64,000 bases of DNA, taken from positions 64,001-128,000 of the forward strand of contig CAZXTN010000001.1 of the NCBI GenBank assembly GCA_964643685.1, in the 5' to 3' direction. Below the pieces are notes generated by a model. The model saw only the letters and a program-made list of their open reading frames with translations. It had not been told where the DNA came from and ran no database searches. The position numbers and the translations under genes were made by a program. The stretch comes from Candidatus Micrarchaeota archaeon (GTDB taxonomy: Archaea; B1Sed10-29; JAJRYS01). Below, one piece after another: positions 1 through 50,326 of this stretch; position 1 is the stretch's first letter; every line of letters starts with the position of its first letter.

Positions 1-533
1 GAATAAAAGAAATGGAAAAAGAAACTCCTTTCATAATGAAAAGCTTCGCCACTTTATTGAATGCAGGAATGAGCTTTGAAAAAGCAATGGAAGAAATATC
101 AAAAAAAGAATACGTTTCATCAAAAGAATTTGAAAAAACACTGAATGAAATAAGACTCGGCGAAAGCGTTGAAAACGCGCTATACAAATTCAAAGAAAGG
201 AACAAGTCAAAGCAAATTGCAAAAATGACAAACCTATTAACAAGCGCATACGCAAACGGAGAAAACATTGAAATGATAAAAAAATCAGCTGAAGAGCAAA
301 GAGAAATCATAAAAAACAAAATGAAAGAATACAATGAAAAAGCAGTGCTTTACTCCTTGGCAATAATAGGCGTATCAGCAATACTACCAGCATTCACTCA
401 GGGATTCCTAATAATAGGCTCAGCATTCATGGACCTCGGAATAAGCGACATGCAAGCAATATTCCTAATCACAGTGGTTTTCCCACTGCTAAACGCGGTG
501 ATATTTTGGATATCAGCATCAAAAAAACCTTGA
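1..533 (+). CDS. Type II/IV secretion system F-family (TadC/GspF-like) membrane protein, 5'-truncated by window edge
   Basis: Frame is open from the window start. Motif LNAGMSFEKAM...EIRLGESVENAL followed by two TM helices is typical of T2SSF domains. Confidence 0.8.
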   Translation, partial: IKEMEKETPFIMKSFATLLNAGMSFEKAMEEISKKEYVSSKEFEKTLNEIRLGESVENALYKFKERNKSKQIAKMTNLLTSAYANGENIEMIKKSAEEQREIIKNKMKEYNEKAVLYSLAIIGVSAILPAFTQGFLIIGSAFMDLGISDMQAIFLITVVFPLLNAVIFWISASKKP

Positions 534-1207
534 AAAAAATAAAACAAGCAAAAAAAGAACATGAAATAGAAAACAACCTGCCAGACGCCTTGTTTCAAAT
601 GAGCGCATCCTCCTACTACCTCCCTCCAGAACAAATGCTCCTTGACATCATAAAATCAGACTACGGGCAACTAAGCAAAGAATTTGAAAAAGCCTACACT
701 GCAATAGAAAACGGCGAAAGCTGGAAAAACGCGCTTGAAAAATTAAAAAAAGACACAAAAAACAAGCACTTTGCAAAAGCAATAAACATGCTCACCCTAA
801 CATATGAAACAGGAAAAGAAGCAGGAACAGCATTAAGAGAAACAGCTGAAGAAATCGCAGAAGAAATGAGAATACAAAGACAGAAAAACACTGCAATGAC
901 AATACAAAAAATAACACTAATCGCCGCAGGCGCTTTCATAATCCCCTTAATACTAGGAGTGCTAATTTCAATGATAAACAACTTTGACTTCACAGGAATA
1001 ACTGAATTTGGAATGACTCAAATGAACTTAAAAACAATAACAAAAGCAAACCAAGCATACTTAATAGAATACGGATTGCTCACAGCAGGCTTCATCTCAT
1101 ACCAAGAAAATAGAAAAGAAAAATTCCTAAAATACGCAGCATTAATCATAATCCCCTCACTAATAATCTTCAACCTCGCAAAAATAGGCGCAATAAGTTT
1201 AATTTAA
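506..1207 (+). CDS. Type II/IV secretion system F-family (TadC-like) membrane protein
   Basis: IENNLPDALFQM...YGQLSKEF...IENGESWKNAL, then three C-terminal TM helices. True start may be TTG at 530, overlapping the upstream stop. Confidence 0.8.
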   Translation: MDISIKKTLKKIKQAKKEHEIENNLPDALFQMSASSYYLPPEQMLLDIIKSDYGQLSKEFEKAYTAIENGESWKNALEKLKKDTKNKHFAKAINMLTLTYETGKEAGTALRETAEEIAEEMRIQRQKNTAMTIQKITLIAAGAFIIPLILGVLISMINNFDFTGITEFGMTQMNLKTITKANQAYLIEYGLLTAGFISYQENRKEKFLKYAALIIIPSLIIFNLAKIGAISLI

Positions 1208-1233
1208 ATACTTGTTTTGAATTACATGAAATC

Positions 1234-1977
1234 ATGTGGGGAAGCAAAGTAAAAATAATCCTAGATAAAAAAACAAACCTAAAAAACTACACGTTAATAG
1301 AAGGATTTCCGGGAATAGGACTAGTCGGCACAATAGCAGCAGGATACATAATAGAAAAAAGAAAAATGGAACCAATAGGGCACATTGAAAGTGAATACTT
1401 CCCACCAATGGCAGCAATACACCAAGGCAAACCATACTTCCCAGCAAGAATATACAAAGACAAAACAAGCGACTTCTGCATACTCCTATCAGAATTCATA
1501 ATCCCCTCAAACATCATTTACGACTTATCAGGACAAATACTAAAATTCGCAAAAAAACAAAAAATAAGACAAATAATCTCACTAGCAGGAATGAGCTCAA
1601 CAATAAAAACAAAAGAAAAAATATTCGGAATAGCATCAAACGACGAAATGCTAAACTACTTAAAAATAAAAAAAATACCCCTAATCAACGAAGGAATAAC
1701 AACAGGAATAAGCGGAGTACTCCTAGCAAAAGCAAGCTCAATAGACTACCCAGTAACAAGCCTACTCATCAAATCAAGCATAGAATACCCAGACCCAAGA
1801 GCAGCAGCAGAACTAATACAAAAACTAGGAGACGTAATAGGACTAGAAGTAGACACAAAAGAACTGCTAAAAGAAGCCAAAACAATAGAAACAAAATTCA
1901 AAGGAATGATACAAAACATACAACAAATGAAAAACTACAAAAAAGCAGAACAAGGCGAACTACCAATGTACGGCTGA
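1234..1977 (+). CDS. PAC2-family proteasome assembly chaperone
   Basis: LIEGFPGIGLVGTIAA N-terminal motif, YPDPRAAA motif, C-terminal PMYG tail. Confidence 0.9.
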   Translation: MWGSKVKIILDKKTNLKNYTLIEGFPGIGLVGTIAAGYIIEKRKMEPIGHIESEYFPPMAAIHQGKPYFPARIYKDKTSDFCILLSEFIIPSNIIYDLSGQILKFAKKQKIRQIISLAGMSSTIKTKEKIFGIASNDEMLNYLKIKKIPLINEGITTGISGVLLAKASSIDYPVTSLLIKSSIEYPDPRAAAELIQKLGDVIGLEVDTKELLKEAKTIETKFKGMIQNIQQMKNYKKAEQGELPMYG

Positions 1978-2080
1978 ACAAACTTTTGAAAAGGTTGTAT
2001 CAAACAAGCCACCTGCACTTTGCTTGGTGACTTAATTCAAAAACCAAAGGTTTTTGAAAATGTTTTGCTTTCGGCAAAAA
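1974..2080 (+). repeat. Four-hairpin dispersed repeat, copy A
   Basis: ACAAA..TTGT-ATCAAACA-stem-TTCAAAAACC/GGTTTTTGAA-AATG-TTTTGC/GCAAAA. Same layout at 2087, 48925 and 49937. Confidence 0.8.
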
Positions 2081-2086
2081 TGACAA

Positions 2087-2252
2087 CTGAACAAACTTTT
2101 GAAAAGTCAATCACAACTTTCAGTTGCTCAAACCTTTACTTTTGACAAAGCAAAGTTTGTATCAAACAGATCATCTTCGGTGCAAAGCACCTCGATGCTC
2201 TTGTTCAAACTTCTCTGAAGTTTGAAATGTTTTGCCTTTAACAAGGCAAAAA
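2087..2252 (+). repeat. Four-hairpin dispersed repeat, copy B (expanded first stem)
   Basis: First 20 nt (CTGAACAAACTTTTGAAAAG) are identical to copy A. Stems 2-4 are most similar to copy C at 48925. Confidence 0.8.
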
Positions 2253-2438
2253 AAGCCAATCATAACTCAACCTGTCTCAAACTACTTTTTTTCACTTCAA
2301 CTCATGAAACAACCAATACTTATTTAATACCTAAAAGAGTTAATACTAAATGCGGAGGAAAAAAAGCATTCCAAAAAACACCAAACAAAACATTATTCAA
2401 ACGCAATTAGCAAATTAATCTCAAAAAGGTTCTTAAAA

Positions 2439-2978
2439 ATGACTGAATTACAAGACTTCTGGAAACTAATGTCACCAAGATTCACAGCACTAGTTACAAC
2501 AATGGACGCAAAAGGAAGAGCAGACGTAAGCCCATTCTCATGGATAACACCAGTCAGCTTCAACCCCCCATTACTAATGATAGCAGTAGGGCCAAACAAG
2601 CACTCATACTGGAACCTCACTCAGAAAAAAGAATTCGTAGTAAACATACCAACTGAAAAAATGCTTGAAAAAATATGGACAGCAGGAGAAAAATGGGACC
2701 CTGAAATATCAAAAATAGAAAGAGCAGGGCTAAAAACAGGAAAATCAGAAAAAGTAGGCCCGCCTCGATTAACAGAATGCGTAGCAAACATAGAATGCTA
2801 CCTAGAAGAAGCTAAAAAAGCAGGAGACCACATAATAATCATAGGCAGAATAGTTGCAATACACGTCAAAGAAGATTACTTAGACGACGAAGGCAGGCTA
2901 AAAGTCGACTTAATCAGAAACCCACTGCACATCGCAGACAACTTATTCGCATTCCCCTACGTGACAAAAGAAGCTTAA
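2439..2978 (+). CDS. Flavin reductase-like (DIM6/NTAB family) protein
   Basis: SPFSW.TPVSFNPPLL, EFVVNIP, PPRLTECVANIEC and GDHIIIIG motifs. Confidence 0.9.
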   Translation: MTELQDFWKLMSPRFTALVTTMDAKGRADVSPFSWITPVSFNPPLLMIAVGPNKHSYWNLTQKKEFVVNIPTEKMLEKIWTAGEKWDPEISKIERAGLKTGKSEKVGPPRLTECVANIECYLEEAKKAGDHIIIIGRIVAIHVKEDYLDDEGRLKVDLIRNPLHIADNLFAFPYVTKEA

Positions 2979-3071
2979 AAAAAGCAGACAATAACTTTTT
3001 AATAAGCAAAACCCTCTTAACAACATAATAAACTAACTCAAAAAAAAATAAGAAGAGGGAAGAAAAATAAA

Positions 3072-4244
3072 ATGCTCAACTTCTGGATTTACTCATACAT
3101 AGGAAGCTTTTTCGGAAGCATAAGCTTCGGATACTTTCTGCTGAGATACGGCTTGCCTGACATCAGAACACTTCCACAGCAAATAAAATTAGGATTAAGC
3201 GGATTCGCAGGACTCCTAATCTTCACAATAAGCGCGTTAATTTCATACTTCCTACTGACACCAATGTTTACCTATGCATTAATGCCAATACTTACTTTCA
3301 TAGCACTAATAGGCATAACAGTAAAAAACAAACTCTTCTCACCTAAAACAATAAAAATAGCAGTGCCAGTAGTGAAAATAAAACAAAAAAAACAAGAAAT
3401 GAAACAAGCACAACCTCCTGCTAAAAAGCAAAAAACTGAAAAAATAAACGTAAAACAAGTGCTTCAGAAAATTGCTGAAAAAACAAAAAAGAAACCAGAA
3501 CAAAAAACTGAAACTAAAAAAGAACAACACAAAATAGAAAAAGAACAGCAGAAAACAGAAGAAGTTAAAAAACCAGTCAAGCTTGAAATACAGCCAGAGA
3601 AACACGAACAAGGAAAGCCGAAAGCAGAAGTGCCTAAAGAATCGCCTTACCTGCTTCACAGAAGAAAAGAAAAAACAGAGGAAAAAACAACTGAAAAACA
3701 AGAAGCACCAAGCAAAACTGAAGAAAAGAGAGGAGAGAAAGAGTTATCTCGTCGTGAAAGGTACTTGAAAAGAAGAGGGTTGTTAATAGAACAAGCAAAA
3801 GCTGACTTGACAAAACCAAAAGAACTTAAGAAAGAAAGCGCGCCTCTTCCAATCATTCCAGAAGAAGAAGTGCAGCTTGAATTCGGAGAAGGGCTTGACT
3901 TAAGTGACTTAGAATCAGTTGACTCATTAAGCGAACTAAGTTCACTAGACGAAGACACTTCACTTGAAGGGTTAGGGGGATTAGATGAATTAAGCTCCCT
4001 TGACTCTGAAGACTTAAGCAACTTAGGAGGCTTAAGCATAGAACAGGAGGTTAAAAAAGAAAAAGGAATGAGCTGCCCAACATGCGGCGCAAAAAACGCC
4101 AAGATAATATACTGCCCGTACTGCGGAAAAGGATTCTGTTCAAACTGTTCATTGAAAGTGCAGAGAAAAGGAGACTTGGTAATATACCAATGTCCTAACT
4201 GCAAAAAAGAAGTCATAGTAAAAGAAGAAAAAAAAGGTATATAA
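3072..4244 (+). CDS. Membrane-anchored protein with long charged linker and C-terminal 8-Cys zinc finger
   Basis: Three N-terminal TM helices, K/E/Q-rich linker, acidic LDELSSL-like repeats, CPTC-x9-CPYC-x4-CSNC-x14-CPNC. Confidence 0.75.
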   Translation: MLNFWIYSYIGSFFGSISFGYFLLRYGLPDIRTLPQQIKLGLSGFAGLLIFTISALISYFLLTPMFTYALMPILTFIALIGITVKNKLFSPKTIKIAVPVVKIKQKKQEMKQAQPPAKKQKTEKINVKQVLQKIAEKTKKKPEQKTETKKEQHKIEKEQQKTEEVKKPVKLEIQPEKHEQGKPKAEVPKESPYLLHRRKEKTEEKTTEKQEAPSKTEEKRGEKELSRRERYLKRRGLLIEQAKADLTKPKELKKESAPLPIIPEEEVQLEFGEGLDLSDLESVDSLSELSSLDEDTSLEGLGGLDELSSLDSEDLSNLGGLSIEQEVKKEKGMSCPTCGAKNAKIIYCPYCGKGFCSNCSLKVQRKGDLVIYQCPNCKKEVIVKEEKKGI

Positions 4245-4270
4245 ACAAAAACTGATTTTAAAAAAAACAT

Positions 4271-4711
4271 ATGAACCTTAATTTTCTCAGCACTTTCCTG
4301 CTGTACCTCTGGTTTAACATAAACAATTTCAAAATATTTGTCATAGGAGGAACAGCAGCAGTATCAACAATCGCCTTCTTATTCATTTACTTCCAAGACA
4401 AGTACACAAACAAAAAGCAGCCTACAGCAGTGAAAATACTCATAGCTTTTACAATCTACTGGGTAATAAACCAAGTGCTGAACATCCTATCAGGAACATT
4501 CACAATAAACCTAAAAGCAATAATCATAAATTACATCTACTACTTCATAATAATTTACATCGGAACAATCATATACTCTAGAATAAAACAAGCAGCAAGC
4601 GAATGGGAAATGCCAAAAGCAATCAAAACATACTTAATTACCCTTGCAACAACTTTAATAATAATGACAGCCATTTACTTAATATCGCAAATAGGAGCAA
4701 GTTACATATGA
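4271..4711 (+). CDS. Hypothetical multi-pass membrane protein
   Basis: About 4 hydrophobic segments, co-oriented with neighbours. Confidence 0.65.
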   Translation: MNLNFLSTFLLYLWFNINNFKIFVIGGTAAVSTIAFLFIYFQDKYTNKKQPTAVKILIAFTIYWVINQVLNILSGTFTINLKAIIINYIYYFIIIYIGTIIYSRIKQAASEWEMPKAIKTYLITLATTLIIMTAIYLISQIGASYI

Positions 4712-5379
4712 AAACAAGACAATTAACCACAATCATACTAGCAATTGCAGTAATAACAACAATATTCACAGCAACAGCAAACTCCTACCAAAAATCAGCA
4801 AAATACGGCTGCTGGACAAACGACAACCAAACATACTACTGCCCAAAAGCAACAACAGTAAGAGACAAACAAATCACATTCTACACTCCAATAACCTGCT
4901 ACATCCTTAATTCAAGCGTGCAATGCTCAAGCGACTGCGGGCAATACGTGGACTACGGATGCTACGCATACATCTCATTCGAAGAAGCATTCAAAGTAAA
5001 CACATGCGAAAAAAAATACACAAACGAAACACTAGGAGAAGACGTAAACTGCAAAGACACTTTAATCAACCCAACTGACTTGCACTTGACAGCAGTTAAT
5101 GTCAATGAAATTGACTACTCAAAATGCACTCAAAGAGTGAATGAAAGCGTGCTGGTAATAGAATGCCCACAGTATAATGGAAAAACAGCACAGGCAATCC
5201 TTCAAACAACAGACGCTGAAATGTTCGACATAATCGACTTCAAAACACAACCAAGCTTAATTGACTTAATAACTCAAAACTTAATTTATTTAATCCTCCT
5301 TGCAGTAATAATAATACTAGCAAAAACAAATTTTATAAAGCCAAGCAAGATGAAAAAATCTAAAAAAAGGAAGAGTTGA
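4708..5379 (+). CDS. Cys-rich exported protein with C-terminal TM anchor and basic tail
   Basis: ATG at 4708 overlaps the upstream TGA (ATGA) and gives signal peptide MKTRQLTTIILAIAVI. Multiple Cys, then a C-terminal TM followed by KKSKKRKS. Confidence 0.75.
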   Translation: MKTRQLTTIILAIAVITTIFTATANSYQKSAKYGCWTNDNQTYYCPKATTVRDKQITFYTPITCYILNSSVQCSSDCGQYVDYGCYAYISFEEAFKVNTCEKKYTNETLGEDVNCKDTLINPTDLHLTAVNVNEIDYSKCTQRVNESVLVIECPQYNGKTAQAILQTTDAEMFDIIDFKTQPSLIDLITQNLIYLILLAVIIILAKTNFIKPSKMKKSKKRKS

Positions 5380-5382
5380 AAA

Positions 5383-8300
5383 ATGAAAATAAAGAAAAAA
5401 GCAAAATTCAGCTATGAAAAAGCATCCTTGTTCTTAATCATAATACTAATAGGCACTTCATTAACTCCTTTTGCTTACTCCATAAAGCCAGCAGAACAAC
5501 AAACAGACAAACTAAACTTGTTTGTAAAAATAGGAGCAGGAGGAGAAGCATGCAAAGACAAAGTCTGGATAGACAAACTTGACTGGAACGAATACCACAA
5601 ACTAGTCAACGACACAATAACACAAGTAGACGCCTTCGGAAACAAAGAAGCCGGCGAAAGAGAACAAAACATGGAAAACGCTGGAATACCCTCAAACCCA
5701 GATGCAATTGGAATGGACAAGCAGTACATACCAGGAGTAGACGGCAAACCAGCTCTCTTATACGACGTCATTGGAAAAAAAGCAGTGAACACAAACGACT
5801 ACTGCTACTTAAACAACTTAGTGACAACAGGAAGAATATCCTACGCAACAAGACTAAAAGGATTCATAAGATACTGCTCAAACAACTCAGCAGAATGCGA
5901 ACAAAGAATAACAAAAGACGAACAAAGTGAAATAGAAGACGCTATAAAAAACGAACTCAAGCCATTAAAAGAACAAATAGACAAAGACAACCCAGACTGG
6001 GAAAAAATAAAAGAAAACATTAACAAATACAAAAACGAAAACACGCAATTCAAAGAAGCACTCTCACAAACAAACTTAATAAAAGAACTTGACAAAACAG
6101 AACCAGACAAAGCAACAGTATCAAAAGAAATGGCAAACCTAGGCTCAGTGCTTGTAATAAAACAAGCAAGCACAGAAACACCAGAATCCTACGTAGAAAG
6201 CCCATCAATAGAACTAACAGTAAACGCAGACCAATTCCTACTAAGCCCAAAAACACTTCAAAACTGGCTCGCCTTCCTAAAATCATTTGCATCATTAGAT
6301 ACTGTAGTAACTGCAATGAATGTGCTTAACATGGCATCAATTGGAAGAGGAGGGAAAGGAGCAGCAGAGGTTATAGAAGGAGCTGAAACAGCTGCAAAAG
6401 CAGAGAAAGTAAGTTGGGTTACAAAATGGGGAAGAAGGTTATTTGGAACAACAGAGGGGGTTAATGCTGGAAGAGCAACAGAATTAATGAAAATAGGGGA
6501 AGCAGCAGAAATGGACGCACAAGTCCTAAAAAATGCGGAAAGGATAGCTAAAGCAACAGAAGAACTTAAAGGAGTAAATAAAGCAGATGAGATATTGAGT
6601 ATATTAAAAAAAAGATCAAATACAATAAGAGAGGCAATAGAAGATACAAATAAGGGATTAAGTAAGAACATAGAAGAATTAGAGAAAATTAAAAATCCCT
6701 CAAACGAAGTAAAGAGTTTGATAAAACAACAAAAGGATATTTTGAAAGATGGAGAGAGCCTAGTAAAAAGGTTAGAAGTTTTAGAAGGAGGAAGTAATAC
6801 AATCACAGATCCTTCGCTATTCGTAGGAGCCATTAACAAATTTGAAGAAGGGGTTAAAAATCTTAAAAATCCATCTCGTTCTTGGGAATGGTATGAAAAA
6901 ATGAAAGCATTAGAAACTGCAGGAAGCTTAAAAGGAAAAGTAGGGGTAAAAGTTTTTGAATTTATACAAGCAGTGTTCCAAAGTAAATTTTTAAATCCAT
7001 TAAAATTAATGATTAGATTTCAAAAAGTAACATGGATAACATATGGTTTAATGTGGATAAACGATCAAGCATTAAGGCAACCAATTTATGAATCAAATGG
7101 AGCATTAATGATAATAAATGAAAAAACAACAAAAACAGCACATATGAGAGAAGCACAATCTTACTTAGATATTAAAAAAACAGTAGATTCAAGAGCGTAC
7201 GCTCAACATTTAAGTGGATTAGTTGATACTTTCTGGAATTTGATAGGAGTCAAAACAGAATCAAAACTAACTAGAAAATTAAAGACAATTCAAGACATTG
7301 TATTTATTTACGACCAAGATGCTTATGCTTCAAAAATAACAGGAAACAATCCAATAAACATTGTATCAAGTCCTCTTGAAACAGGAAGCGAGTGGAAATT
7401 CTTCTCAACAGTAAATGACAAAGCAGTAGTATACAACTTCGAACACCCGAATGGATACAAAGGAGGAGGAAAATACTCAGCATTAGCATTTGAAATAAAA
7501 AACATAAATTTAGGGGCAGTAATAGCAGAGTCAAGTAATAAATTTAACACGCCATTAACAGGCCCGGTAAGAGCAATAGGAGTAATAAGAGATTTAATAG
7601 GGGCAACAATGCTATTTAGTTTTGCACCAGCATCAGCAACAGCAGCAGTGACAACAGCAGGAAAAGTTTTTTACGCATTGCCTGCAATGGCAGTAGCAGG
7701 AGTGTCAACTTATGGTGTAATTAAAGGAGCTTTCCCAATGTATACTCAAGAAATGTATGATATTACACAAGAAACAACAGCAAATGTAAACAGTTTAGAA
7801 GAGATATATGATAATCCAGATGCAACACTCTGTTCAGATGCAATTAATAAAGGAACATTTGGAGACAAGAATGCAGTAACAGCTTTAAAATGGGCTATTG
7901 CAGCAACAGCTTTCATTTCACTTGTTGCATCAGATTCAGGAATAGGAAAACCAATAGGAATAGTTTCTGATTTAATAAATATGGGATTAAGTTGGAAAGA
8001 AGAGAAGATAGAGGAGGAGGTAAATGAAAAATTAAGCAATTGTGTTGAAACTGAATTTGATGCAGTGGCTTACAAGGACATGTTAAGTGACACTGAACTT
8101 CAGCAGAATTCAGCGCAGGCTTTACAGCCTCTTCAAGAAGAAATGTTTAACTTAATGGGAAGCATGAGCCCGCAGGCAACTGAAGCTCTTCAAAGCATTA
8201 CAACCAACATTGTACAGAACACTTTAAGTGTCACAGGAGAATTATATGACAAGAATATTGTAACAACAACAGGAAAAGAAATTTACAATATTCACTTCAA

Positions 8301-9738
8301 AGACGGGGCTATAAAATGGTTCCAAAGCGACAACTGCAAGATACAATTATGCCAGCAGGAAGAAGGCACTACAAGGTATAAATGTGATACTCAGCAAGGT
8401 TACATGTTATATGATGAAAATGGAGAATTAGTTCTGGATGGCGCTCCGCAGGCATTGAGTTTATACACTGATTTTGAAACAGGAAACATGAACATAGTTC
8501 AGAAAGTAATTGAAATAGCCAAGGATTCAGAAAACCCTTCAACGCAGTTTGAAATAACAAAAGATGGAATAAAAGTTAAAAGCACTTGCTTGAAGTCAAA
8601 TATTAAAAAATTACTTGGCTTGACAGGAGACAACATGGAAAGAGTTTCAGAAAATGACATTGACTCTAAAATTGAAACAAGCCTCGGTAACTTAGAAGCA
8701 ATATATACTGAAGATGCTAACTTGTGGTTTGATGAAAACGGCTTGCTTTCAATTCAATTTACAAAAGACACTGGCAGTTACGCTGCAGGGGAAATACAAA
8801 GAGTGAAAAAGGCAAAAATAGAGTTTGAAAACACTAACAATGGATTGATGAAAATAACAGGAGATGACGGCTATTCATTAAGCCTTGAATTAGGTTCAAA
8901 AGGAGTCATTTCATTCAAAAACGGAATGCTGAGGTCAGGTTTGATTCAAACAAAAGAAGATGGAGACAAAGTTGATTTTTCAAACCAGTTCCACTTGTTC
9001 ATATACGGCTTAACTGAATTCACAGTGTCAGATATTAACAGCATAAACATAAGCGATTACTGCAATGAAGACGGCACTTTAAACGGAGTCAAGCTTCAAG
9101 CTGACTTGGCATTAGGAGACCTTGACGCAAGCCAAGTTAACAACGTATTAAGTGACATTTGCTTCAGTGAATTTGAAACTGCAAATGGAGGACACGTGTC
9201 AATAAGAAACGGGCAATTATGCATACAAAAGCCAAATGGAGAAGAAGAATGCACTGACGTAACTGAAACAGATGAGGGCTTGAAAGCAGCAGACGGCAGC
9301 ATTTGGAAAATAGAAAACGGCCCAAACGGACCTGAATGGTGGCAGTACATAAACGGCAAAAGAACAGGCAATCCTCTTCCAATACTAAACATGAACGGCT
9401 TAGGAGGAAGCTGGACAACAGGAGCAGACGGCAGAATAAGCATTAAAAACACTTTCCCATTCGCATTAAACCCTTCATTCAACCAATACGGAGCAGGAGG
9501 ACTTGGTTTAATGACTCCTCAACTGCCTCCATGGGGAGGAAGAGTAGAAGCAAAACAAGCAACGCAAGGAACAGGAGGACAAGGAACTCAAAACAATGTA
9601 ATTGCACAGTTGCCTGGATTACCTGAAAACCCATACTGGTTTGCCTTGTTCATAATCACTTTAATCAGCAGCTTGATAATCATAAGAATAAAATACTCAG
9701 ATGAAGAAGTAAAGCAAATAATTAAAAAACAAGAATAA
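5383..9738 (+). CDS. Giant exported/surface protein (1451 aa) with internal hydrophobic helices and C-terminal TM anchor
   Basis: N-terminal signal peptide, long uninterrupted ORF, C-terminal LPGLPENP-TM-RIK. Confidence 0.8.
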   Translation: MKIKKKAKFSYEKASLFLIIILIGTSLTPFAYSIKPAEQQTDKLNLFVKIGAGGEACKDKVWIDKLDWNEYHKLVNDTITQVDAFGNKEAGEREQNMENAGIPSNPDAIGMDKQYIPGVDGKPALLYDVIGKKAVNTNDYCYLNNLVTTGRISYATRLKGFIRYCSNNSAECEQRITKDEQSEIEDAIKNELKPLKEQIDKDNPDWEKIKENINKYKNENTQFKEALSQTNLIKELDKTEPDKATVSKEMANLGSVLVIKQASTETPESYVESPSIELTVNADQFLLSPKTLQNWLAFLKSFASLDTVVTAMNVLNMASIGRGGKGAAEVIEGAETAAKAEKVSWVTKWGRRLFGTTEGVNAGRATELMKIGEAAEMDAQVLKNAERIAKATEELKGVNKADEILSILKKRSNTIREAIEDTNKGLSKNIEELEKIKNPSNEVKSLIKQQKDILKDGESLVKRLEVLEGGSNTITDPSLFVGAINKFEEGVKNLKNPSRSWEWYEKMKALETAGSLKGKVGVKVFEFIQAVFQSKFLNPLKLMIRFQKVTWITYGLMWINDQALRQPIYESNGALMIINEKTTKTAHMREAQSYLDIKKTVDSRAYAQHLSGLVDTFWNLIGVKTESKLTRKLKTIQDIVFIYDQDAYASKITGNNPINIVSSPLETGSEWKFFSTVNDKAVVYNFEHPNGYKGGGKYSALAFEIKNINLGAVIAESSNKFNTPLTGPVRAIGVIRDLIGATMLFSFAPASATAAVTTAGKVFYALPAMAVAGVSTYGVIKGAFPMYTQEMYDITQETTANVNSLEEIYDNPDATLCSDAINKGTFGDKNAVTALKWAIAATAFISLVASDSGIGKPIGIVSDLINMGLSWKEEKIEEEVNEKLSNCVETEFDAVAYKDMLSDTELQQNSAQALQPLQEEMFNLMGSMSPQATEALQSITTNIVQNTLSVTGELYDKNIVTTTGKEIYNIHFKDGAIKWFQSDNCKIQLCQQEEGTTRYKCDTQQGYMLYDENGELVLDGAPQALSLYTDFETGNMNIVQKVIEIAKDSENPSTQFEITKDGIKVKSTCLKSNIKKLLGLTGDNMERVSENDIDSKIETSLGNLEAIYTEDANLWFDENGLLSIQFTKDTGSYAAGEIQRVKKAKIEFENTNNGLMKITGDDGYSLSLELGSKGVISFKNGMLRSGLIQTKEDGDKVDFSNQFHLFIYGLTEFTVSDINSINISDYCNEDGTLNGVKLQADLALGDLDASQVNNVLSDICFSEFETANGGHVSIRNGQLCIQKPNGEEECTDVTETDEGLKAADGSIWKIENGPNGPEWWQYINGKRTGNPLPILNMNGLGGSWTTGADGRISIKNTFPFALNPSFNQYGAGGLGLMTPQLPPWGGRVEAKQATQGTGGQGTQNNVIAQLPGLPENPYWFALFIITLISSLIIIRIKYSDEEVKQIIKKQE

Positions 9739-9788
9739 GAAAAGAAATACTTCAGTTTTTTATACTCCTTGTTCTTTACTCTAATTTA

Positions 9789-10346
9789 ATGAAATTGCAG
9801 AAAAAAGGCCAGGAATCAGCGCCTATTGAATTGTTAATAGGAGTAACTATCCTAACATTCGTGTTAATTATTGGGTTTTATGTCCTGCAACAAGCATCTT
9901 CACAGCAATACGAGCAAAAACTAAAAGCAAGTTTCAGCAACTTTGCAAGAGACATAGAAGCAGTTTATTTAGGAAGTGTAGGCACAAGTTTCAGGACACA
10001 AGTTGACTTCACGCCCTCTGGAAGCGGAAACGACTTTGTAATTTCATCAATTCAATTAAAACAAGGACTCTCTCCTACGTGCAGTGCCCAAACTGGAAGA
10101 AGCGACTGCATGGAATTATATGCTTACAAGAGAGACAAGTACGGCAATGAAAACTTGTTCCTAGCAGAAGTCATAAACATTCCAAGCAGCGTAAGCATAA
10201 TAGGAAGCTTTTCAAACTGCCAAGGAGGAAATTTAAGTGAAATAGGAAGTAGAGAGAGTAACCCAGATTGCTTCATTACCCCTACAAGCCACTCTTTTAT
10301 TTTGACAAAAACAGGACCTAATGAAATCACTATAAGCGAAGGATGA
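9789..10346 (+). CDS. Class III signal peptide (type IV pilin-like) protein
   Basis: MKLQKKG/QESAPIELLIGVTILTFVLIIGF. Confidence 0.8.
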   Translation: MKLQKKGQESAPIELLIGVTILTFVLIIGFYVLQQASSQQYEQKLKASFSNFARDIEAVYLGSVGTSFRTQVDFTPSGSGNDFVISSIQLKQGLSPTCSAQTGRSDCMELYAYKRDKYGNENLFLAEVINIPSSVSIIGSFSNCQGGNLSEIGSRESNPDCFITPTSHSFILTKTGPNEITISEG

Positions 10347-10353
10347 ATTTAAA

Positions 10354-10908
10354 ATGAACAAAGGATTAAGCGCTTGGCTGTTCAGCAAAATGGTAATGCT
10401 TTCATTTCTGTTAATTGTATTCAGCATCATGGGAGGGTTTCTTACAATATTAAACGAAAGAGCATTCAATGATTCAGCTTCAATACTCTGCCTTCAAGCA
10501 AGAGAATACTTGTCAGGGGTAGTGAATTCAAACGTAATAAGCGTTGAAAAAATAATGCCAATTCCAAAAGTGCTGCCAAGCGAAACAAATCAAAAAAGAA
10601 GAATGTATTACTTAGTAATAAGTTATTCCAGTTCAGACAATTCAGTTTCATTTGCAGTCACGCATGACTTGTATCATGACCAGACATATGTCTCCTCTTC
10701 CTTGCTTTACCTGCCAAGCAATTCAGGAATACAATGGGGAAGTGGAGACTTGAGAATAAGCTCAGATAAATACAGGTACTTAGTTATTCAAAAAAAACAA
10801 GGAGAAACCACAATTTACGCTTGCAAAGGAATAAACCCAACTACATTAAAAAACTGCATTTCAAGCCAAAGCCCTTCAGCTGAAAGTGATTCAATTGAAA
10901 GAGTTTAA
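10354..10908 (+). CDS. Class III signal peptide (minor pilin-like) protein
   Basis: MNKG/LSAWLFSKMVML followed by a hydrophobic helix. Confidence 0.7.
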   Translation: MNKGLSAWLFSKMVMLSFLLIVFSIMGGFLTILNERAFNDSASILCLQAREYLSGVVNSNVISVEKIMPIPKVLPSETNQKRRMYYLVISYSSSDNSVSFAVTHDLYHDQTYVSSSLLYLPSNSGIQWGSGDLRISSDKYRYLVIQKKQGETTIYACKGINPTTLKNCISSQSPSAESDSIERV

Positions 10909-11317
10909 AAGCAAATCAAGGGGGTTCATAGGCCCGATTGGCGACGACTTGCCAAGCATAATAGCAATATTGCTAGGCTTGTCTTTATTTTTCAGCGCAT
11001 TAAGCTTTACGTTAAATGTTTACAATAACAAACTGACAGCATACAACATACTAAAAGGCACAATGGAAATAGCACATAAAGTCAACGAAAAAGGAGTAAT
11101 AACTGAAAGCGCAAGCGACTTAATGCATTCAGCTGAAAAAATAGCTGAGTCATATGGGCTTGACTTCTGCATAAAAACAAAAGTAGGAAACACTAATGGA
11201 AAATCATGCACTACAGGAAACGACTGTCAAACAAGCTGGCTTCATTTCAAATACTTCACGGCATTTGAAACAAGCAACGGCATAAAACCAGGCACTTTGG
11301 AGGTATGCGCAGGATGA
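10886..11317 (+). CDS. Class III signal peptide (minor pilin-like) protein
   Basis: KSKSRG/FIGPIGDDLPSIIAILLGLSLFF. Confidence 0.7.
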   Translation: MIQLKEFKSKSRGFIGPIGDDLPSIIAILLGLSLFFSALSFTLNVYNNKLTAYNILKGTMEIAHKVNEKGVITESASDLMHSAEKIAESYGLDFCIKTKVGNTNGKSCTTGNDCQTSWLHFKYFTAFETSNGIKPGTLEVCAG

Positions 11318-11856
11318 ACAAAAGCAAAAGAAGAAAAGGGCAGTCTTCAATAATAGACGCTTTCTTATTTATAATGATCTGCTCAAGCGCGGCAGTGCTA
11401 ATGATTTACACAGCAGGGTTATATGGATTGAATAATTCAAAACAAGTTAGCATGGCATACAATTTTGAATTCATTAACAATGCTTTGATTTCAATGCATT
11501 ACATGCAAGACAACCAGGGTGATTTTTTCTGGAGCAAGTTAAGTGAAAAGTTAATATGCGATGGAAACACACCATGTGATGAAAAAATAGATGTTCAATC
11601 TTATTTGAATGGAGATGCTAAAGCAATTTGGGGTAACTTAACAACAGCTTCTCCTTCTTCAAAAATATCACTGGAATTTAAGTCAGAGGAGGACAGCAGA
11701 GACTTTTACTGCCACCCCTCATCTTCAGCAACTTTAACAGTAGCATGCACTGACTCTGACAATTATGCAGATTACACTACTATTTTTTCAAGCTCAAGCG
11801 GATTAAAAGACAAAAACGCAGACAGTTGGAAAATAACCTTAAGAATATACTACTAA
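11314..11856 (+). CDS. Class III signal peptide (minor pilin-like) protein
   Basis: MNKSKRRKG/QSSIIDAFLFIMI. GGAGGT lies upstream and ATGA overlaps the previous gene. Alternative start at 11305. Confidence 0.75.
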   Translation: MNKSKRRKGQSSIIDAFLFIMICSSAAVLMIYTAGLYGLNNSKQVSMAYNFEFINNALISMHYMQDNQGDFFWSKLSEKLICDGNTPCDEKIDVQSYLNGDAKAIWGNLTTASPSSKISLEFKSEEDSRDFYCHPSSSATLTVACTDSDNYADYTTIFSSSSGLKDKNADSWKITLRIYY

Positions 11857-12153
11857 AGAAAAAAAAGATAAACCTAAACAAAAACAAACGCCCTAAAAGA
11901 AAAAAAAAGACACAAGTTAATAACAAAATCAGAGCAACAACATGCCTATTTGATTTACTGAGAATTCAGCTGCATTTTGAAACATCGGCTTAATAATAGC
12001 CAACAGCAAAATAGCTGCAATTGCTACAATCACAGCCAAGTAAATAGGCGTCCAATTCTGTCCCTTCATCATAAACAAATCACTTCAAGTAATAACAAAA
12101 GAAAAACAAGTATAAAAACCTTTAACAAAAACAAAAAAAAGAAAAAGAAGGAT

Positions 12154-43463: not shown

Positions 43464-43580
43464 AAGACACCACCTTATTAGAAATTATATTTAATTTAAA
43501 TAAGTTAAAATATAAAAAACAATAAAAGAGCAACAAAATAAAAAGAAAAAACAGAACTGAAGGAGATATAAACCAAAAAT

Positions 43581-43686
43581 AGCCCTGTAGTCTAGTGGCC
43601 AAGGATGCGGGACTCTGGATCCTGCGACGCAGGTTCGAATAATTTTCGCTTTCAAAAGCGGAAAAACGAAAATCCTGCCAGGGCTA
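43581..43686 (+). tRNA. tRNA-Gln(CTG) with T-loop intron (59/60) at 43640-43672
   Basis: AGCCCTG/CAGGGCT, CGGGA-CT-CTG-GA-TCCTG, BHB central helix TTCG/CGAA. Confidence 0.92.
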
Positions 43687-43711
43687 TTCTCACTAAAAAA
43701 AAACAGGAAAA

Positions 43712-44302
43712 GTGAAAAAAATGGTGGACAAATACGAAGCACAAAAAAAGAGAGATGCTTTAGATGAAATAATTGCAAACGCTACACAAATAGAATGGGA
43801 AAAAGAATGGGAAGAAAGAGTTAGCAAAGAAGTTGCAGAAGCAAAAAAAAGAATAGAAGAAGAAATAGAAAAAAGAATAAAAAAAGGAGAACAACCGCAG
43901 AAAGTAATTGAAGAAATGGAAAACAAAATCCTCCCCAACGGAACAATACTAAAAGAAGAAAGAGAATGGATGAATCAGGCAATTGAAAAAGCCGAAGACA
44001 AAGCAAGATTAACAGAACAAGTAAGGAGAATAGAACAAAACCCAAACCTAAACAGGGACAAAAAAGAGCTATACAAAGTAGTAGCAGCAAGAAGAGTATA
44101 TCAAAAATGGAATAAAAAAGGAATGAACGCAAGAAATGAAACAGTGCCTAGGTTAGTAAAAGAAGCTGAAAAAGAAATTAAAAAGTGGGGCCCATTAGAA
44201 GCAATAAGGGGACCAGAAGAACAGGAAAAGGTAACAGAGTATAATAAAAAAAGAGAAAAAAAGAGAGGAGCAAAGAGAGGGAGTAGAAGGAGGCGTTTTT
44301 AA
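43712..44302 (+). CDS. Hypothetical highly charged helical protein
   Basis: K/E/R-rich ORF between two tRNA genes. Confidence 0.6.
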   Translation: MKKMVDKYEAQKKRDALDEIIANATQIEWEKEWEERVSKEVAEAKKRIEEEIEKRIKKGEQPQKVIEEMENKILPNGTILKEEREWMNQAIEKAEDKARLTEQVRRIEQNPNLNRDKKELYKVVAARRVYQKWNKKGMNARNETVPRLVKEAEKEIKKWGPLEAIRGPEEQEKVTEYNKKREKKRGAKRGSRRRRF

Positions 44303-44303
44303 A

Positions 44304-44630
44304 ATGAGTAAATTATTAGATAAATTTAAGAGAATAAGAGAAAGAAAAAGAGCAAGGAGAGAGGACATAAAGCGTATTGAAAAAAACTTAGGGAAAATTG
44401 ACAGAGAGATAAGAGAAATAGAAAATGCTTTAAAAGGCGAGAGAAATTTACTTGAAGAAAGAGGAATGAAAGAGGATATGCCTGACTGGATTAAAGAAAA
44501 AATGGAAAGTGGAGTGGAACAAGAAGTAATTGGCATAGAAGGGAACCCTTCAGAGGTAATTTTAGAACAAAGGTTAATGGAACTTAAGAGAATAAGAAGG
44601 GGATTAAGAGAGGAGTTAAGTAGATTATAG
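44304..44630 (+). CDS. Hypothetical charged coiled-coil protein
   Basis: GGAGG RBS upstream. The stop codon shares its last base with tRNA-Val +1. Confidence 0.6.
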   Translation: MSKLLDKFKRIRERKRARREDIKRIEKNLGKIDREIREIENALKGERNLLEERGMKEDMPDWIKEKMESGVEQEVIGIEGNPSEVILEQRLMELKRIRRGLREELSRL

Positions 44631-44736
44631 GGCCCGTGGTCTAGTGGTTAGGAAAGCTGGCAGTGGAAAAGCTGTGGTTTTAGCAAACGTCGCCTTCACA
44701 CGGCGGAGATCGCTCGTTCAAGTCGGGCCGGGCCCA
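44630..44736 (+). tRNA. tRNA-Val(CAC) with D-stem intron (23/24) at 44653-44686
   Basis: GGGCCCG/CGGGCCC, TCGCC-TT-CAC-AC-GGCGG, BHB helix GTTA/TAGC. Confidence 0.9.
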
Positions 44737-44826
44737 CTTACAAAAAAACAAAAACTGCTTCCGTCTCCCAGGCCCAACTTCCTATGGGCGATCGGACAAG
44801 CCACACAAGGTGCCTTAAAAAAAATT

Positions 44827-44901
44827 GCTTCCGTCTTCTAGCTCGGTCAAGGATGAGGGACTCTCACTCCCTCGACGCGGGTTCAAATCCCGCCGGAAGC
44901 A
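44827..44901 (+). tRNA. tRNA-Glu(CTC), intronless
   Basis: GCTTCCG/CGGAAGC, AGGGA-CT-CTC-AC-TCCCT, GCGGG-TTCAAAT-CCCGC. Confidence 0.93.
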
Positions 44902-44964
44902 CTTAAAAGGAATAAAAAGCAGTGAAGGGTTTAAATCAGAGAAGAGAGTTAAAGAGGTATTAAG

Positions 44965-45408: not shown

Positions 45409-45426
45409 AGAGGAGAAGATGAAAAA

Positions 45427-46133: not shown

Positions 46134-46187
46134 TTAACAACTTCTCTAAAAAGAATAAAGTTAATTAAACAGAATACACAAGGGTTC

Positions 46188-46424: not shown

Positions 46425-46479
46425 CTAATGGGTTTTATGCCCATGGGTTTTGATGCAACTTTTGTCAAAAGTTGCGTTT

Positions 46480-46596
46480 AAATCCCTTCCCTTGCACTTT
46501 GAAAAAAAATAAAGGGACTAAGCGAAGCGCATGTCGCTGGATTAAATGCAATTTTTGTTAAAAATTGCTGACAATCCCTTCCCTTGCACTAATGGG
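46480..46596 (+). repeat. Two extra copies of the tRNA-Leu(TAA) 3' end (AATCCCTTCCCTTGCACT) at about 46480-46498 and 46573-46596
   Basis: Exact direct repeats of 46409-46426. Confidence 0.9.
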
Positions 46597-48633: not shown

Positions 48634-48695
48634 CTAAAAAAAGGGCTTTATACCCTTTTGGGTTTTGATGCAACTTTTGTTAAAAGTTGCCGAAG

Positions 48696-48924: not shown

Positions 48925-49112
48925 CTACAATTTGTTGAACAAATTGTATTAAACAATCTATCTTCGGCGACAAGCGCCTTGATAGACTAGTTCAAACTTC
49001 TAACGAAGTTTGAAATCTTTTTTGCCTTACGGCAAAAAAATGAGCACTTCAGCAAGCTGAAGGGGTCAATTGATACAAACTTTTAAAGTTTGTTTTGCCT
49101 TACGGCAAAAAA
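48925..49112 (+). repeat. Four-hairpin dispersed repeat, copy C (48925-49040) plus truncated copy (about 49073-49112)
   Basis: Starts at the base after the tRNA-Thr discriminator. First 31 nt are identical to copy D. Confidence 0.85.
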
Positions 49113-49936: not shown

Positions 49937-50032
49937 CTACAATTTGTTGAACAAATTGTATTAAACAGACCACACAAGGTAGTCTTATTCAAACTCTTTC
50001 AGAGTTTGAAATGTTTTTGCCTTCGCAAAAAA
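49937..50032 (+). repeat. Four-hairpin dispersed repeat, copy D
   Basis: Starts at the base after the tRNA-Asp discriminator, with the same stems and linkers as copies A-C. Confidence 0.85.
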
Positions 50033-50326
50033 GCTTTGCTTCAAAGAAGGGTTGAAACAAAAATTATAAAAGACCCCTAAGAGAAGCACATGTGGTCTGC
50101 GAGGGAATCAGAAATTCCCTAGAAATCAATCGCCTAACGGCTCAAACGTTTTTCCCTAACAGGAAAAACTGAAAGGGGCAGCAAGTCCCCTGCGTTTCGG
50201 TGAGGATTCAGGCTGGGGCGCTTTAGCTTTAAAGCAAAAAAGATACGAATAGAAAAGTATATATACTTGGAAAGCAACAAAAGATACACCTATTTTTTTT
50301 CTATTTTTGGGCTGGGTGAAGTTAAT

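What the first reader, a model, noticed from the sequence alone, without database searches (positions are those of the whole stretch)
1974..2252. Dispersed four-hairpin element with compensatory base changes (candidate new structured RNA or non-autonomous mobile element)
Seen: four copies (1974-2080, 2087-2252, 48925-49040, 49937-50032) plus a truncated one share stem1-ATYAAACA-stem2-stem3-linker-stem4. Stem 3 covaries: TTCAAAAACC/GGTTTTTGAA, TTCAAACTTC/GAAGTTTGAA (twice) and TTCAAACTCT/AGAGTTTGAA. Stem 2 swaps GGTG/CACC for GGCG/CGCC. Stem 4 keeps TTTTGC/GCAAAA with variable loops. AAACA can pair with the TGTTT after stem 3 in copies A, B and D, closing a multiway junction. All copies sit directly 3' of a gene in the same orientation. 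Inference: structure is conserved while loops drift, as expected for a functional RNA or a ssDNA substrate such as a REP/IS200-605-like HUH-mobilised element. No transposase is visible in the window.
Basis: partly seen in the sequence, partly recalled or inferred. Interest (0 to 1): 0.78.

Follow-up and report, generated by a model that had tools for sequence, protein, structure and literature searches.

The report
Four-hairpin repeat family in archaeal genome
A small DPANN-type archaeon carries a family of roughly 100-base non-coding repeats built from four hairpins that keep their pairing through matched base changes; they sit just after tRNA and protein genes, match no known RNA family, and most resemble the mosaic palindromic repeats of bacteria.

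Summary
Four full copies (1978-2079, 2091-2251, 48926-49039, 49938-50031) share four hairpins in a fixed order, with conserved linkers. On the alignment, 13 of 30 pairs change on both sides and 94.7% of cells stay paired. A covariance model scores the copies 94-113 bits and finds no fifth full copy.

There is no Rfam match, no conserved ORF and no transposase or integrase among 63 ORFs. None of the 111 pattern hits in species-representative genomes is a true copy. The host is a Micrarchaeota-related archaeon.

New points:
- The stem-1-plus-linker sub-module also occurs four times in reverse, three of them beside duplicated tRNA 3' fragments.
- The copies are mosaics of each other.
- The minus strand folds better than the plus strand in all four copies.
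- The proposed junction-closing helix has no covariation.

Best reading (0.45): a BIME-like family of hairpin modules that spreads by duplication and recombination at gene 3' flanks. It is transcribed as a 3' trailer ending in a U-tract.

HUH mobilisation, a dedicated functional RNA and integration remnants remain open. Copy number and relatives could not be checked.

The parts
1978..2079 (+). Copy A. Stem 1 is 1978-1998, the 8-base linker 1999-2006, stem 2 2006-2033, stem 3 2036-2058 and stem 4 2063-2079. It starts right after the stop codon (1975-1977) of the PAC2-family gene 1234-1977.
   Evidence: model R1 scores 112.9 bits; Pfam PAC2
2087..2251 (+). Copy B. 2087-2106 repeats the first 20 bases of A exactly. 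The stem-1 arms are 2091-2099 and 2152-2160, around a 52-base insert. The linker is 2161-2168, stem 2 2168-2201, stem 3 2204-2226 and stem 4 2230-2251.
   Evidence: 93.8 bits
48926..49039 (+). Copy C. Stem 1 is 48926-48948, stem 2 48957-48986, stem 3 48991-49014 and stem 4 49018-49039, which holds a T6 run. It starts 3 bases after the discriminator (48924) of an intron-bearing tRNA, probably Thr(UGU), at 48782-48924.
   Evidence: 112.7 bits; tRNA
49938..50031 (+). Copy D. Stem 1 is 49938-49960, stem 2 49967-49985 (short form without the inner helix), stem 3 49988-50010 and stem 4 50014-50031, which holds a T5 run. It starts 3 bases after the discriminator (49936) of tRNA-Asp(GUC) at 49809-49936, which has a T-loop intron.
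   Evidence: 102 bits; tRNA
49041..49112 (.). Partial copy C'. It has a hairpin at 49041-49068, a stem-1-like hairpin with linker in reverse orientation at 49066-49093, and an exact 20-base repeat of stem 4 of C at 49093-49112.
46444..46475 (-). Reversed stem-1-plus-linker module (hairpin 46455-46475), just upstream of a duplicated tRNA-Leu 3' fragment at 46484-46497.
   Evidence: (family D16)
46537..46568 (-). Reversed stem-1-plus-linker module (hairpin 46548-46568), upstream of a second duplicated tRNA-Leu 3' fragment at 46576-46589. Model R1 scores 28.2 bits on the minus strand of 46459-46575.
48659..48690 (-). Reversed stem-1-plus-linker module (hairpin 48670-48690), upstream of a duplicated tRNA-Met 3' fragment at 48698-48711.
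50208..50221 (+). Partial duplicate of the tRNA-Asp 3' end (12 of 14 bases; a 12-base exact core). Copy D and about 170 further hairpin-rich bases therefore lie between the tRNA end and its repeat.

Best explanation
These are members of a lineage-specific family of non-coding repeats in the chromosome of a Micrarchaeota-related (DPANN) archaeon.

Each repeat is assembled from a few hairpin modules: stem 1 with an 8-base linker, then stems 2, 3 and 4. In kind it is closest to bacterial REP/BIME-type mosaic palindromic repeats.

Shown:
- The modules keep their pairing through changes on both sides.
- They are reshuffled between copies.
- They occur as a fixed four-hairpin unit in gene orientation, and as partial units in reverse.

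Inferred:
- The family grows at the DNA level by local duplication and by recombination or gene conversion between copies. It lodges in the 3' flanks of tRNA and protein genes.
- The full units are co-transcribed with the gene they abut, because there is no room for a promoter between gene and repeat. They then form four stable hairpins that end at a U-tract.
- As RNA they would serve as a 3'-end module: archaeal U-tract termination plus a barrier to 3' exonucleases. In the two tRNA cases the trailer would be cut off by RNase Z.
For: Structure is kept through change.
- 13 of 30 pairs change on both sides and 94.7% of cells are paired.
- RNAalifold gives the same three stems.
- For stem 1 in 7 of the 8 modules (B left out because of its insert), 98.4% of 63 cells are paired and 4 of 9 pairs change on both sides.

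The copies are mosaics.
- A and B share an identical 20-base start.
- C and D share an identical 31-base start.
- B and C share stems 2 and 3 (76% over 58 bases).
- The 3' tails pair A with C and B with D.
- B's start repeats 4 bases of the upstream gene's end, so it arose by local duplication rather than by precise transposition.

Sub-modules occur in both orientations, in tandem and in inverted clusters.

Hairpins cluster: 26 of the 34 distinct perfect hairpins with stems of 8 bp or more lie in 2036-2251 and 46024-50169, about 7% of the window.

Position and termination signals.
- A starts at the base after a stop codon. C and D start 3 bases after a tRNA discriminator.
- T5/T6 runs sit in stem 4 of D and C, and a T7 run lies 34 bases after B.
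- On this A-rich sense strand, T-runs of 5 or more are rare and follow several other stops at about 18 bases.
- TATA-like boxes of the local type follow B and D before the next genes.
- Archaeal termination at U-tracts is taken from PMC8716108 and PMC7515710 (abstract starts seen in the listing).

No known family or coding explanation: no Rfam family and no ORF.
Against: - Only 4 full and 4 partial copies were seen, in 64 kb of a 239 kb contig. High copy number, the hallmark of REP/BIME, is untested.
- No mobilising enzyme is in the window.
- The fixed module order and the near-invariant unpaired linkers look more like a single functional RNA than a loose mosaic.
- For the RNA step, the minus strand folds better in all four copies: A -28.1 against -26.1, B 3' part -36.8 against -33.4, C -45.2 against -40.2, D -31.8 against -26.7 kcal/mol.
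- Three of the stem-2 mismatches are C-A on the plus strand, which is G-U on the minus strand.
- If termination happens in the T-run, which is the 5' arm of stem 4, that hairpin would never form in the RNA.
- A and B have only T4 in stem 4.
- Only 2 of the roughly 13 tRNA genes I could read in the window carry the unit.
- No transcript data exist.
Confidence: 0.45

Rival explanations
1. It is a dedicated functional structured RNA on the plus strand. It would be either a cis-acting 3' element or a roughly 100-base small RNA released from tRNA and mRNA trailers. Multiple gene copies are kept by selection on the RNA, not by any mobility.
For: - The order of four helices is fixed, with near-invariant unpaired linkers and helix bases while the distal pairs and loops vary.
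- All four full copies are co-oriented with, and abut, an upstream gene.
- A T-run lies at the 3' end.
- Copy C folds far better than shuffles (z -9.0).
Against: - The minus strand is the more stable in 4 of 4 copies.
- No pair varies on one side only, so there are no G-U intermediates.
- Sub-modules occur reversed four times.
- The copies are recombinant mosaics.
- No true copy was found among the 111 pattern matches in 185,579 species-representative genomes. The exact-pattern search would miss diverged relatives.
Confidence: 0.2
2. It is a non-autonomous ssDNA-hairpin element mobilised in trans by a Y1/HUH enzyme, of the REP-RAYT or IS200/IS605 (PATE) type. The hairpins would be the enzyme's recognition structures on one DNA strand.
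For: - The palindromes are imperfect, with one mismatch in the outer stem 2 of each copy.
- Pairing is kept by changes on both sides without G-U steps.
- The minus strand carries G-T where the plus strand carries C-A.
- Tandem and inverted arrangements occur.
- REPs with associated Y1 transposases are known in bacteria (PMC2817692 and PMC3116915, abstract starts seen in the listing).
Against: - No Y1/HUH, TnpB or any transposase family was found among 63 ORFs. The 12 unexplained ORFs gave nothing at lax thresholds.
- The one weak zinc-ribbon hint (3072-4244) belongs to a membrane and low-complexity protein, not a TnpB.
- No shared 4-5-base target lies to the left of the copies.
- No two copies are near-identical over their full length.
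- B's start copies flanking gene bases, which argues against precise excision and insertion.
Confidence: 0.12
3. The unit is the edge of small integrative or transposing elements that target the 3' end of tRNA genes. Stem 1 plus linker would be the site next to the crossover core, forward on one side and reversed on the other. The short stretches seen today would be decayed or miniature inserts.
For: - C and D start right after a tRNA 3' end.
- D plus about 170 bases is followed by a repeat of the tRNA-Asp 3' end (12-base exact core).
- tRNA-Leu has 3 copies, and tRNA-Met 2 copies, of the stretch from the T-loop to the 3' end. Each extra copy is preceded by a reversed stem-1 module.
- At the C locus a forward and a reversed module face each other about 140 bases apart.
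- Repeats running from the T-loop to the 3' end are the usual mark of integrase sites in tRNA genes (recalled, not from a call).
Against: - No integrase, casposase or other recombinase is in the window.
- C has no downstream repeat of its tRNA end.
- A and B are not at a tRNA gene.
- The Leu and Met inserts are only about 55-90 bases and lack the forward module.
- No reversed module precedes the Asp repeat.
Confidence: 0.15
4. The functional strand is the minus strand: a structured RNA read antisense to the end of the upstream gene.
For: - The minus-strand folds are 2.0-5.1 kcal/mol more stable in 4 of 4 copies, with stem 2 continuous through G-U pairs.
- In their own orientation, three of the four reversed modules (the second Leu module, the Met module and C') are followed by a T7 or T8 run.
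Against: - The local TATA type is not seen to the right of the full copies (my reading; not scanned formally).
- On the minus strand a T-run comes first, and no T-run follows stem 1.
- The three C-A mismatches are all G-to-A on the A-rich plus strand relative to the other copies. A mutation bias would explain them without selection.
Confidence: 0.05
5. The hairpins are chance palindromes in AT-rich spacers.
For: The window is 36% G+C, and spacers and tRNA introns here are full of AT-rich hairpins.
Against: - Four copies share order, linkers and helix bases.
- Motif counts are far above shuffles.
- Model scores are 94-113 bits against 32 bits or less elsewhere.
- 13 pairs are compensatory.
Confidence: 0.01

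Closest known systems
Bacterial REP / BIME (repetitive extragenic palindromes and their mosaic clusters)
   Same: - Short imperfect palindromes in intergenic DNA, mostly just after genes.
- Combined with conserved linkers into mosaic units, in tandem and in inverted arrangements.
- Pairing kept while sequence drifts.
- Proposed roles in termination and mRNA protection (PMC3733652 and PMC2817692, abstract starts seen).
- REP-like palindromes have been reported in archaea in general. In the passages of PMC12306157 read, the word DPANN occurs 0 times.
   Different: - No sequence similarity.
- AT-rich stems of 9-10 bp rather than GC-rich ones.
- A fixed four-hairpin order.
- No GTAG/CGTC-type head that holds for all copies.
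- Copy number unknown.
- No RAYT gene seen.
IS200/IS605-derived miniature elements (PATEs) and REP-RAYT systems
   Same: Hairpins that could act as ssDNA signals. There are no terminal inverted repeats at the unit's two ends and no short target duplication.
   Different: - No Y1 transposase or TnpB in the window.
- No constant target bases to the left of the unit.
- Four hairpins rather than one at each end.
- Copies are diverged mosaics rather than near-identical insertions.
Attachment sites of integrative elements in tRNA genes
   Same: The position directly after tRNA genes. Repeats of the stretch from the T-loop to the 3' end lie nearby (Leu, Met, Asp). Module orientation is mirrored on the two sides of the repeated tRNA piece.
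   Different: - The inserts are only tens to hundreds of bases.
- No integrase is present.
- Two of the four units are not at a tRNA gene.
- One tRNA-linked unit has no repeat.
Functional RNAs cut from tRNA 3' external spacers and mRNA 3' UTRs (for example the E. coli leuZ 3' spacer RNA; recalled, not from a call)
   Same: The unit would be co-transcribed behind a tRNA or an ORF and released by 3' processing as a stable structured RNA.
   Different: Those are single-copy and act by base-pairing through an unstructured seed. Here there are several copies, almost fully paired, with no target in view.
Archaeal U-tract terminators acting with aCPSF1
   Same: T5/T6 runs at the unit's 3' end, on a sense strand that is otherwise poor in T-runs.
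   Different: U-tract termination needs no hairpins. Here the run is one arm of a conserved hairpin, and three more conserved hairpins lie before it.

Membership tests
Any Rfam 15 family | A covariance-model match at the family's gathering score | tested here: not met
   The whole window at gathering score gives only tRNA. With E up to 5 over 44500-50700 and E up to 10 over 1900-2450, nothing over the units scores more than 25 bits, and every match is far below its cut-off.
REP / BIME | Short imperfect palindromes in intergenic DNA, joined into mosaic clusters in both orientations | tested here: met
REP / BIME | High copy number (on the order of 100 or more per genome) | not testable with these tools
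   Only 64 kb of the genome is held, with 4 full and 4 partial copies.
REP / BIME | A conserved GTAG or CGTC head at one end of the palindrome (PMC3733652, title and abstract start) | tested here: not met
   This rests on reading. C and D have the complement of such a head before stem 1, but it is the flank shared by most tRNA genes here. A and B lack it.
REP-RAYT / IS200-IS605 (PATE) | A Y1/HUH transposase (or TnpB) gene in the genome, typically flanked by the repeats | tested here: not met
   None among 63 ORFs of the window in Pfam. The 12 unexplained ORFs were re-scanned in NCBIfam and in Pfam at E up to 1. The rest of the genome was not seen.
IS200-IS605 (PATE) | A constant 4-5-base target immediately 5' of the left end | tested here: not met
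   The left flanks of A, B, C and D differ wherever the boundary is set.
Integron attC site | One bipartite hairpin closed by conserved inverted core sites at the two ends, in cassette arrays next to an integron integrase | tested here: not met
   The unit is four separate hairpins and its two ends do not pair. No integrase is in the window. The core-site consensus was compared by eye only.
Archaeal bulge-helix-bulge intron | Two 3-base bulges separated by a 4-bp helix at the boundaries | tested here: inconclusive
   No such motif appears in the folds of the units with their flanks. No dedicated BHB scan was run.
Integrative-element attachment site in a tRNA gene | A direct repeat of the tRNA 3' part bounding the insert, and an integrase gene | tested here: inconclusive
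   A repeat is present for D (12 of 14 bases) and absent for C. A and B are not at a tRNA gene. No integrase is in the window.

The most novel reading that the evidence does not exclude
The hairpin modules may be the working parts of a so far undescribed process that remodels RNA genes in DPANN archaea.

In this reading, a module (stem 1 plus linker) lands beside tRNA ends in either orientation and duplicates the adjoining tRNA end piece. The 5' piece runs to or near a D-loop intron site, and the 3' piece runs from the usual T-loop intron site. That would seed new tRNA introns and the heavy fragmentation of tRNA genes seen here. The four-hairpin unit would be its full form, and may also be a new class of structured RNA released from 3' trailers.
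Probability: 0.12. Interest if true: 0.8.

Novelty: new variant of a known kind. Interest (0 to 1): 0.45.

Why it matters
DPANN archaea have tiny genomes with little spare DNA, and almost nothing is known of their non-coding elements.

A repeat family that keeps four hairpins through compensatory change, sits at the 3' ends of tRNA and protein genes, and shares modules with the spacers beside duplicated tRNA pieces would be one of two things. It could be the first BIME-like system described in this group, with a say in RNA 3'-end formation. Or it could be a handle on how the unusually fragmented tRNA genes of this lineage arise.

It also gives a ready covariance model for scanning related genomes.

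Tried and rejected
1. One scan of genome contigs with a gapped pattern built from the linker and stem 3 gave 111 loci, mostly bacterial, including one orthologous Pelagibacteraceae locus hit many times. With model R1 the best locus scores 23.4 bits (E 0.035) against 94-113 bits for the true copies, so all are chance matches. The window's own genome was not among them.

2. blastn of copy C against the phage and plasmid collections gave no match.

3. Six-frame translation of the four copies shows no shared open frame.

4. The ORF at 3072-4244 gave a weak hit to a Cas12f/TnpB-type zinc ribbon (E 0.3). The protein has an N-terminal hydrophobic stretch, a long charged low-complexity middle and a C-terminal zinc ribbon. 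Its PDB matches are zinc-finger and RING proteins plus weak ribosomal-protein L4 hits. It is not a transposase.

6. K-turn, H/ACA and C/D box features were looked for by eye in stems 1 and 2 and not seen. These are recalled consensus features, and no tool test was run.

7. A likeness between the bases before A and a tRNA 3' end (10 of 17 by my own count on the family D10 alignment) is best read as chance. Those bases encode the gene's last residues, which fit the C-terminal HbYX motif of PAC2-type proteins (motif recalled).

8. Literature searches and the passages of PMC12306157 read turned up no description of such an element in Micrarchaeota or DPANN. These were word searches of an open-access library only.

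Helix coordinates were taken instead from folds run on coordinates.
Full report
**Setting.** The window is archaeal chromosome. It carries the rpoH-rpoB-rpoA-L30e-NusA-S12-S7-EF2-EF1alpha-S10 row, a family B DNA polymerase, a PAC2-family gene, pilus-type secretion genes and very large surface proteins. G+C is about 36%, and the sense strand is strongly A-rich. The best named relatives of its EF-2 are Candidatus Micrarchaeota (74% identity) and DPANN archaea. Unnamed relatives reach 83%, and the source contig is 239 kb. Stretches 43.5-50 kb and 63.4 kb hold many tRNA genes with one to three introns. ARAGORN finds only 3 of them, and Rfam finds 5 at gathering score.

**The observation.** Each folds into four consecutive hairpins. 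Z-scores are -2.8 to -9.0, and 0 of 200 shuffles fold as well in each case. The helices are:
- Copy A: 1978-1998, 2006-2033, 2036-2058, 2063-2079.
- Copy B: stem-1 arms 2091-2099 and 2152-2160, then 2168-2201, 2204-2226, 2230-2251.
- Copy C: 48926-48948, 48957-48986, 48991-49014, 49018-49039.
- Copy D: 49938-49960, 49967-49985, 49988-50010, 50014-50031.

Motif counts are far above shuffles. The stem-4 pattern gives 5 matches, all in copies, against 0.81 expected. The stem-3 pattern gives 4 of 5 matches in copies against 1.09 expected. A covariance model built from the four copies scores them 93.8-112.9 bits. Every other match in the window is 32 bits or less. The three best of those are mirror hits on the minus strand of the copies themselves. 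So there are four full copies in 64 kb and no fifth.

**Covariation.** On the MAFFT alignment, with a structure I wrote for stems 1 to 3, 94.7% of 113 cells are paired. 13 of 30 pairs change on both sides and none changes on one side only. 0 of 500 shuffles reach the observed pairing, covariation score or the two counts of changes on both sides; the count of further pair types was reached by 142 of 500. Slid controls give 30-50% pairing. I derived that structure from these sequences, which favours it. RNAalifold finds the same three stems unaided, with 11 of 26 pairs compensatory. Stem 4 could not be aligned in register and was left out of the counts. By reading, its inner six pairs are invariant and its outer pairs differ in number. 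With four related sequences this is strong descriptive evidence, not a formal test.

- B is a full copy with a 52-base insert in the loop of stem 1.
- B's first 20 bases equal those of A, including the last base and the stop codon of the PAC2 gene. At least that part of B arose by local duplication of A with its flank.
- The three bases before C and D belong to a four-base flank shared by most tRNA genes here. The units therefore begin at stem 1.
- The proposed helix closing a multiway junction is present in 19 of 20 cells. It never covaries, its one change breaks it in copy C, and it competes with stem 4.

**New observations that bear on the interpretation.**

First, the copies are mosaics. 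A and B share their starts, and so do C and D (31 identical bases). B and C share stems 2 and 3. The 3' tails pair A with C and B with D.

Second, the sub-module made of stem 1 and the linker recurs four times in reverse orientation, at 46444-46475, 46537-46568, 48659-48690 and 49066-49093. When seven of the eight modules are aligned in their own orientation (B left out), 98.4% of cells are paired and 4 of 9 pairs change on both sides.

Third, three of the reversed modules lie just upstream of extra copies of the 3' piece of tRNA-Leu (two extra copies) and tRNA-Met (one). Each piece runs from the T-loop to the 3' end. The 3' end of tRNA-Asp is also partly repeated at 50208-50221, about 170 bases beyond copy D.

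Fourth, the minus strand folds better than the plus strand in all four copies, by 2.0 to 5.1 kcal/mol. Three stem-2 mismatches are C-A on the plus strand. All three are G-to-A changes on the A-rich strand relative to the other copies. A mutation bias can therefore explain them.

Fifth, 26 of the 34 distinct perfect hairpins with stems of 8 bp or more in the window lie in the two stretches that hold the units and the tRNA introns.

**What it is not.**
- No Rfam family matches, at gathering score or at lax E-values.
- No open frame is shared between the copies.
- No transposase, integrase or Cas1 family appears among 63 ORFs. The 12 unexplained ORFs gave nothing on re-scanning. The one weak zinc-ribbon hint is not a TnpB.
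- There are no terminal inverted repeats between the unit's two ends and no constant left-flank bases.
- No match was found in the phage or plasmid collections.
That scan needed exact conserved motifs, so diverged relatives would be missed. The window's own genome is not in that collection.

**Position and likely working.** A begins at the base after a stop codon. C and D begin three bases after the discriminators of a probable tRNA-Thr(UGU) and of tRNA-Asp(GUC).
- For Thr, among the 17,280 in-silico splice variants, 2,664 ARAGORN calls of normal length (71-77 nt) were Thr(UGU), and this was the commonest call.
- For Asp, 54 of 192 variants gave a tRNA call; all 40 printed were tRNA-Asp(GUC).

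There is no room for a promoter, so the units are almost certainly transcribed with the gene ahead of them. This is inferred.

T-runs of five or more are rare on this sense strand and follow several other stop codons at about 18 bases. C and D carry T6 and T5 runs in the 5' arm of stem 4, and a T7 run follows B by 34 bases. TATA-like boxes of the local type lie between B and the next gene, and just before rpoH after D. Archaeal termination at U-tracts helped by aCPSF1 is established (PMC8716108 and PMC7515710, abstract starts).

The simplest working model is therefore a 3' trailer module. It would combine four stable hairpins, which could block 3' exonucleases, with a U-tract. In the two tRNA cases RNase Z would cut the trailer off. 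None of this is shown. If RNA polymerase stops inside the T-run, stem 4 cannot form in that RNA.

**Weighing.** The mosaic make-up, the reversed sub-modules, the tandem and facing arrangements, the lack of G-U steps and the indifference to strand all point to a repeat family shaped at the DNA level. That is how bacterial REP/BIME clusters behave. The strict gene-end position, the shared orientation of the four full units and the T-run point to a role once transcribed. The two are compatible, as they are for REP/BIME. I therefore file the element as a BIME-like hairpin-module family (0.45).

The rivals are:
- a dedicated plus-strand RNA (0.20);
- remnants or miniature forms of elements that integrate at tRNA 3' ends (0.15);
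- a Y1/HUH-mobilised ssDNA element (0.12);
- a minus-strand RNA (0.05);
- chance (0.01).

Membership in REP/BIME proper is not claimed. Copy number could not be tested, the tagged head is not met, and no RAYT was seen.

**Novelty and limits.** I found no description of such an element in the word searches, or in the passages read. REP-like palindromes are reported in archaea in general there, but DPANN is not mentioned. The kind (mosaic palindromic intergenic repeats) is known. This form, in this lineage and with these links to tRNA gene ends, appears new.

The main limit is that only 64 kb of one genome could be examined. The copy number, the spread among relatives and any partner enzyme are unknown.

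Noticed in passing
window 43577-50000 and 63417-63550: Many tRNA genes are broken by one to three introns, including introns in the D-loop and T-loop. ARAGORN finds 3 tRNAs and Rfam 5 at gathering score. By reading I count about 13. tRNA-Asp (49809-49936) is called only after about 55 bases are removed from its T-loop. The tRNA at 48782-48924 needs two removals and is most often called Thr(UGU). This fits the broad-specificity splicing endonuclease described for Micrarchaeum (PMC3239211, abstract start).
   Followed up: partly
window 46412-46589, 48426-48442, 48621-48711, 44757-44771, 50208-50221: Terminal pieces of tRNA genes are repeated next to the genes. The 3' piece of tRNA-Leu occurs 3 times identically. 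tRNA-Met has its 3' piece twice (1 mismatch) and its first 15-17 bases twice. The 5' end of tRNA-Glu occurs twice (2 mismatches) and the 3' end of tRNA-Asp twice (2 mismatches). The 3' pieces start in the T-loop, where other tRNAs here have introns. The Met 5' piece ends at or near its D-loop intron site. The cause is open: integration sites, partial duplications, or intron birth.
   Followed up: partly
window 48047-48148: An apparent orphan tRNA 3' piece (a T-arm interrupted by a hairpin, then an acceptor 3' strand) lies between the dCTP deaminase gene and a tRNA. No matching 5' part is nearby; the matching 7-base acceptor string occurs 12 times in the window, none of them next to this piece. 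It may be a split tRNA piece or a relic.
   Followed up: partly
window 46184-46283: A tandem 39-base repeat (87% identical, family D12) lies just upstream of tRNA-Leu. By my reading, it is followed by a short stretch resembling the D-arm of that tRNA.
   Followed up: no
window 50035-50207: The stretch between copy D and the repeat of the tRNA-Asp end holds several more stable hairpins. One is like stem 4, with a compensatory change. Another shares its loop with the hairpin at 49041-49068. Rfam gives no match.
   Followed up: partly
window 44725-49940 (3' flanks of tRNA genes): By my reading, 8 of the 14 tRNA-like ends listed are followed by the same short four-base flank after the discriminator rather than by an encoded CCA. 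This may be a processing or termination signal.
   Followed up: no
window 1-12000 and 50000-64000: AT skew on the sense strand is extreme (up to +0.58), and T-runs of five or more are almost confined to gene ends there.
   Followed up: no
window 1969-1977: The PAC2-family protein ends in a hydrophobic-Tyr-X tail. As I recall, this is the motif by which such chaperones dock on the proteasome. Copy A starts at the very next base.
   Followed up: no
loci L001, L003, L008, L009, L015, L025, L026 and others: The search pattern hit what looks like one shared locus in many Pelagibacteraceae genomes (79-base matches). Model R1 scores there are 18 bits or less, so it is unrelated to the element.
   Followed up: partly
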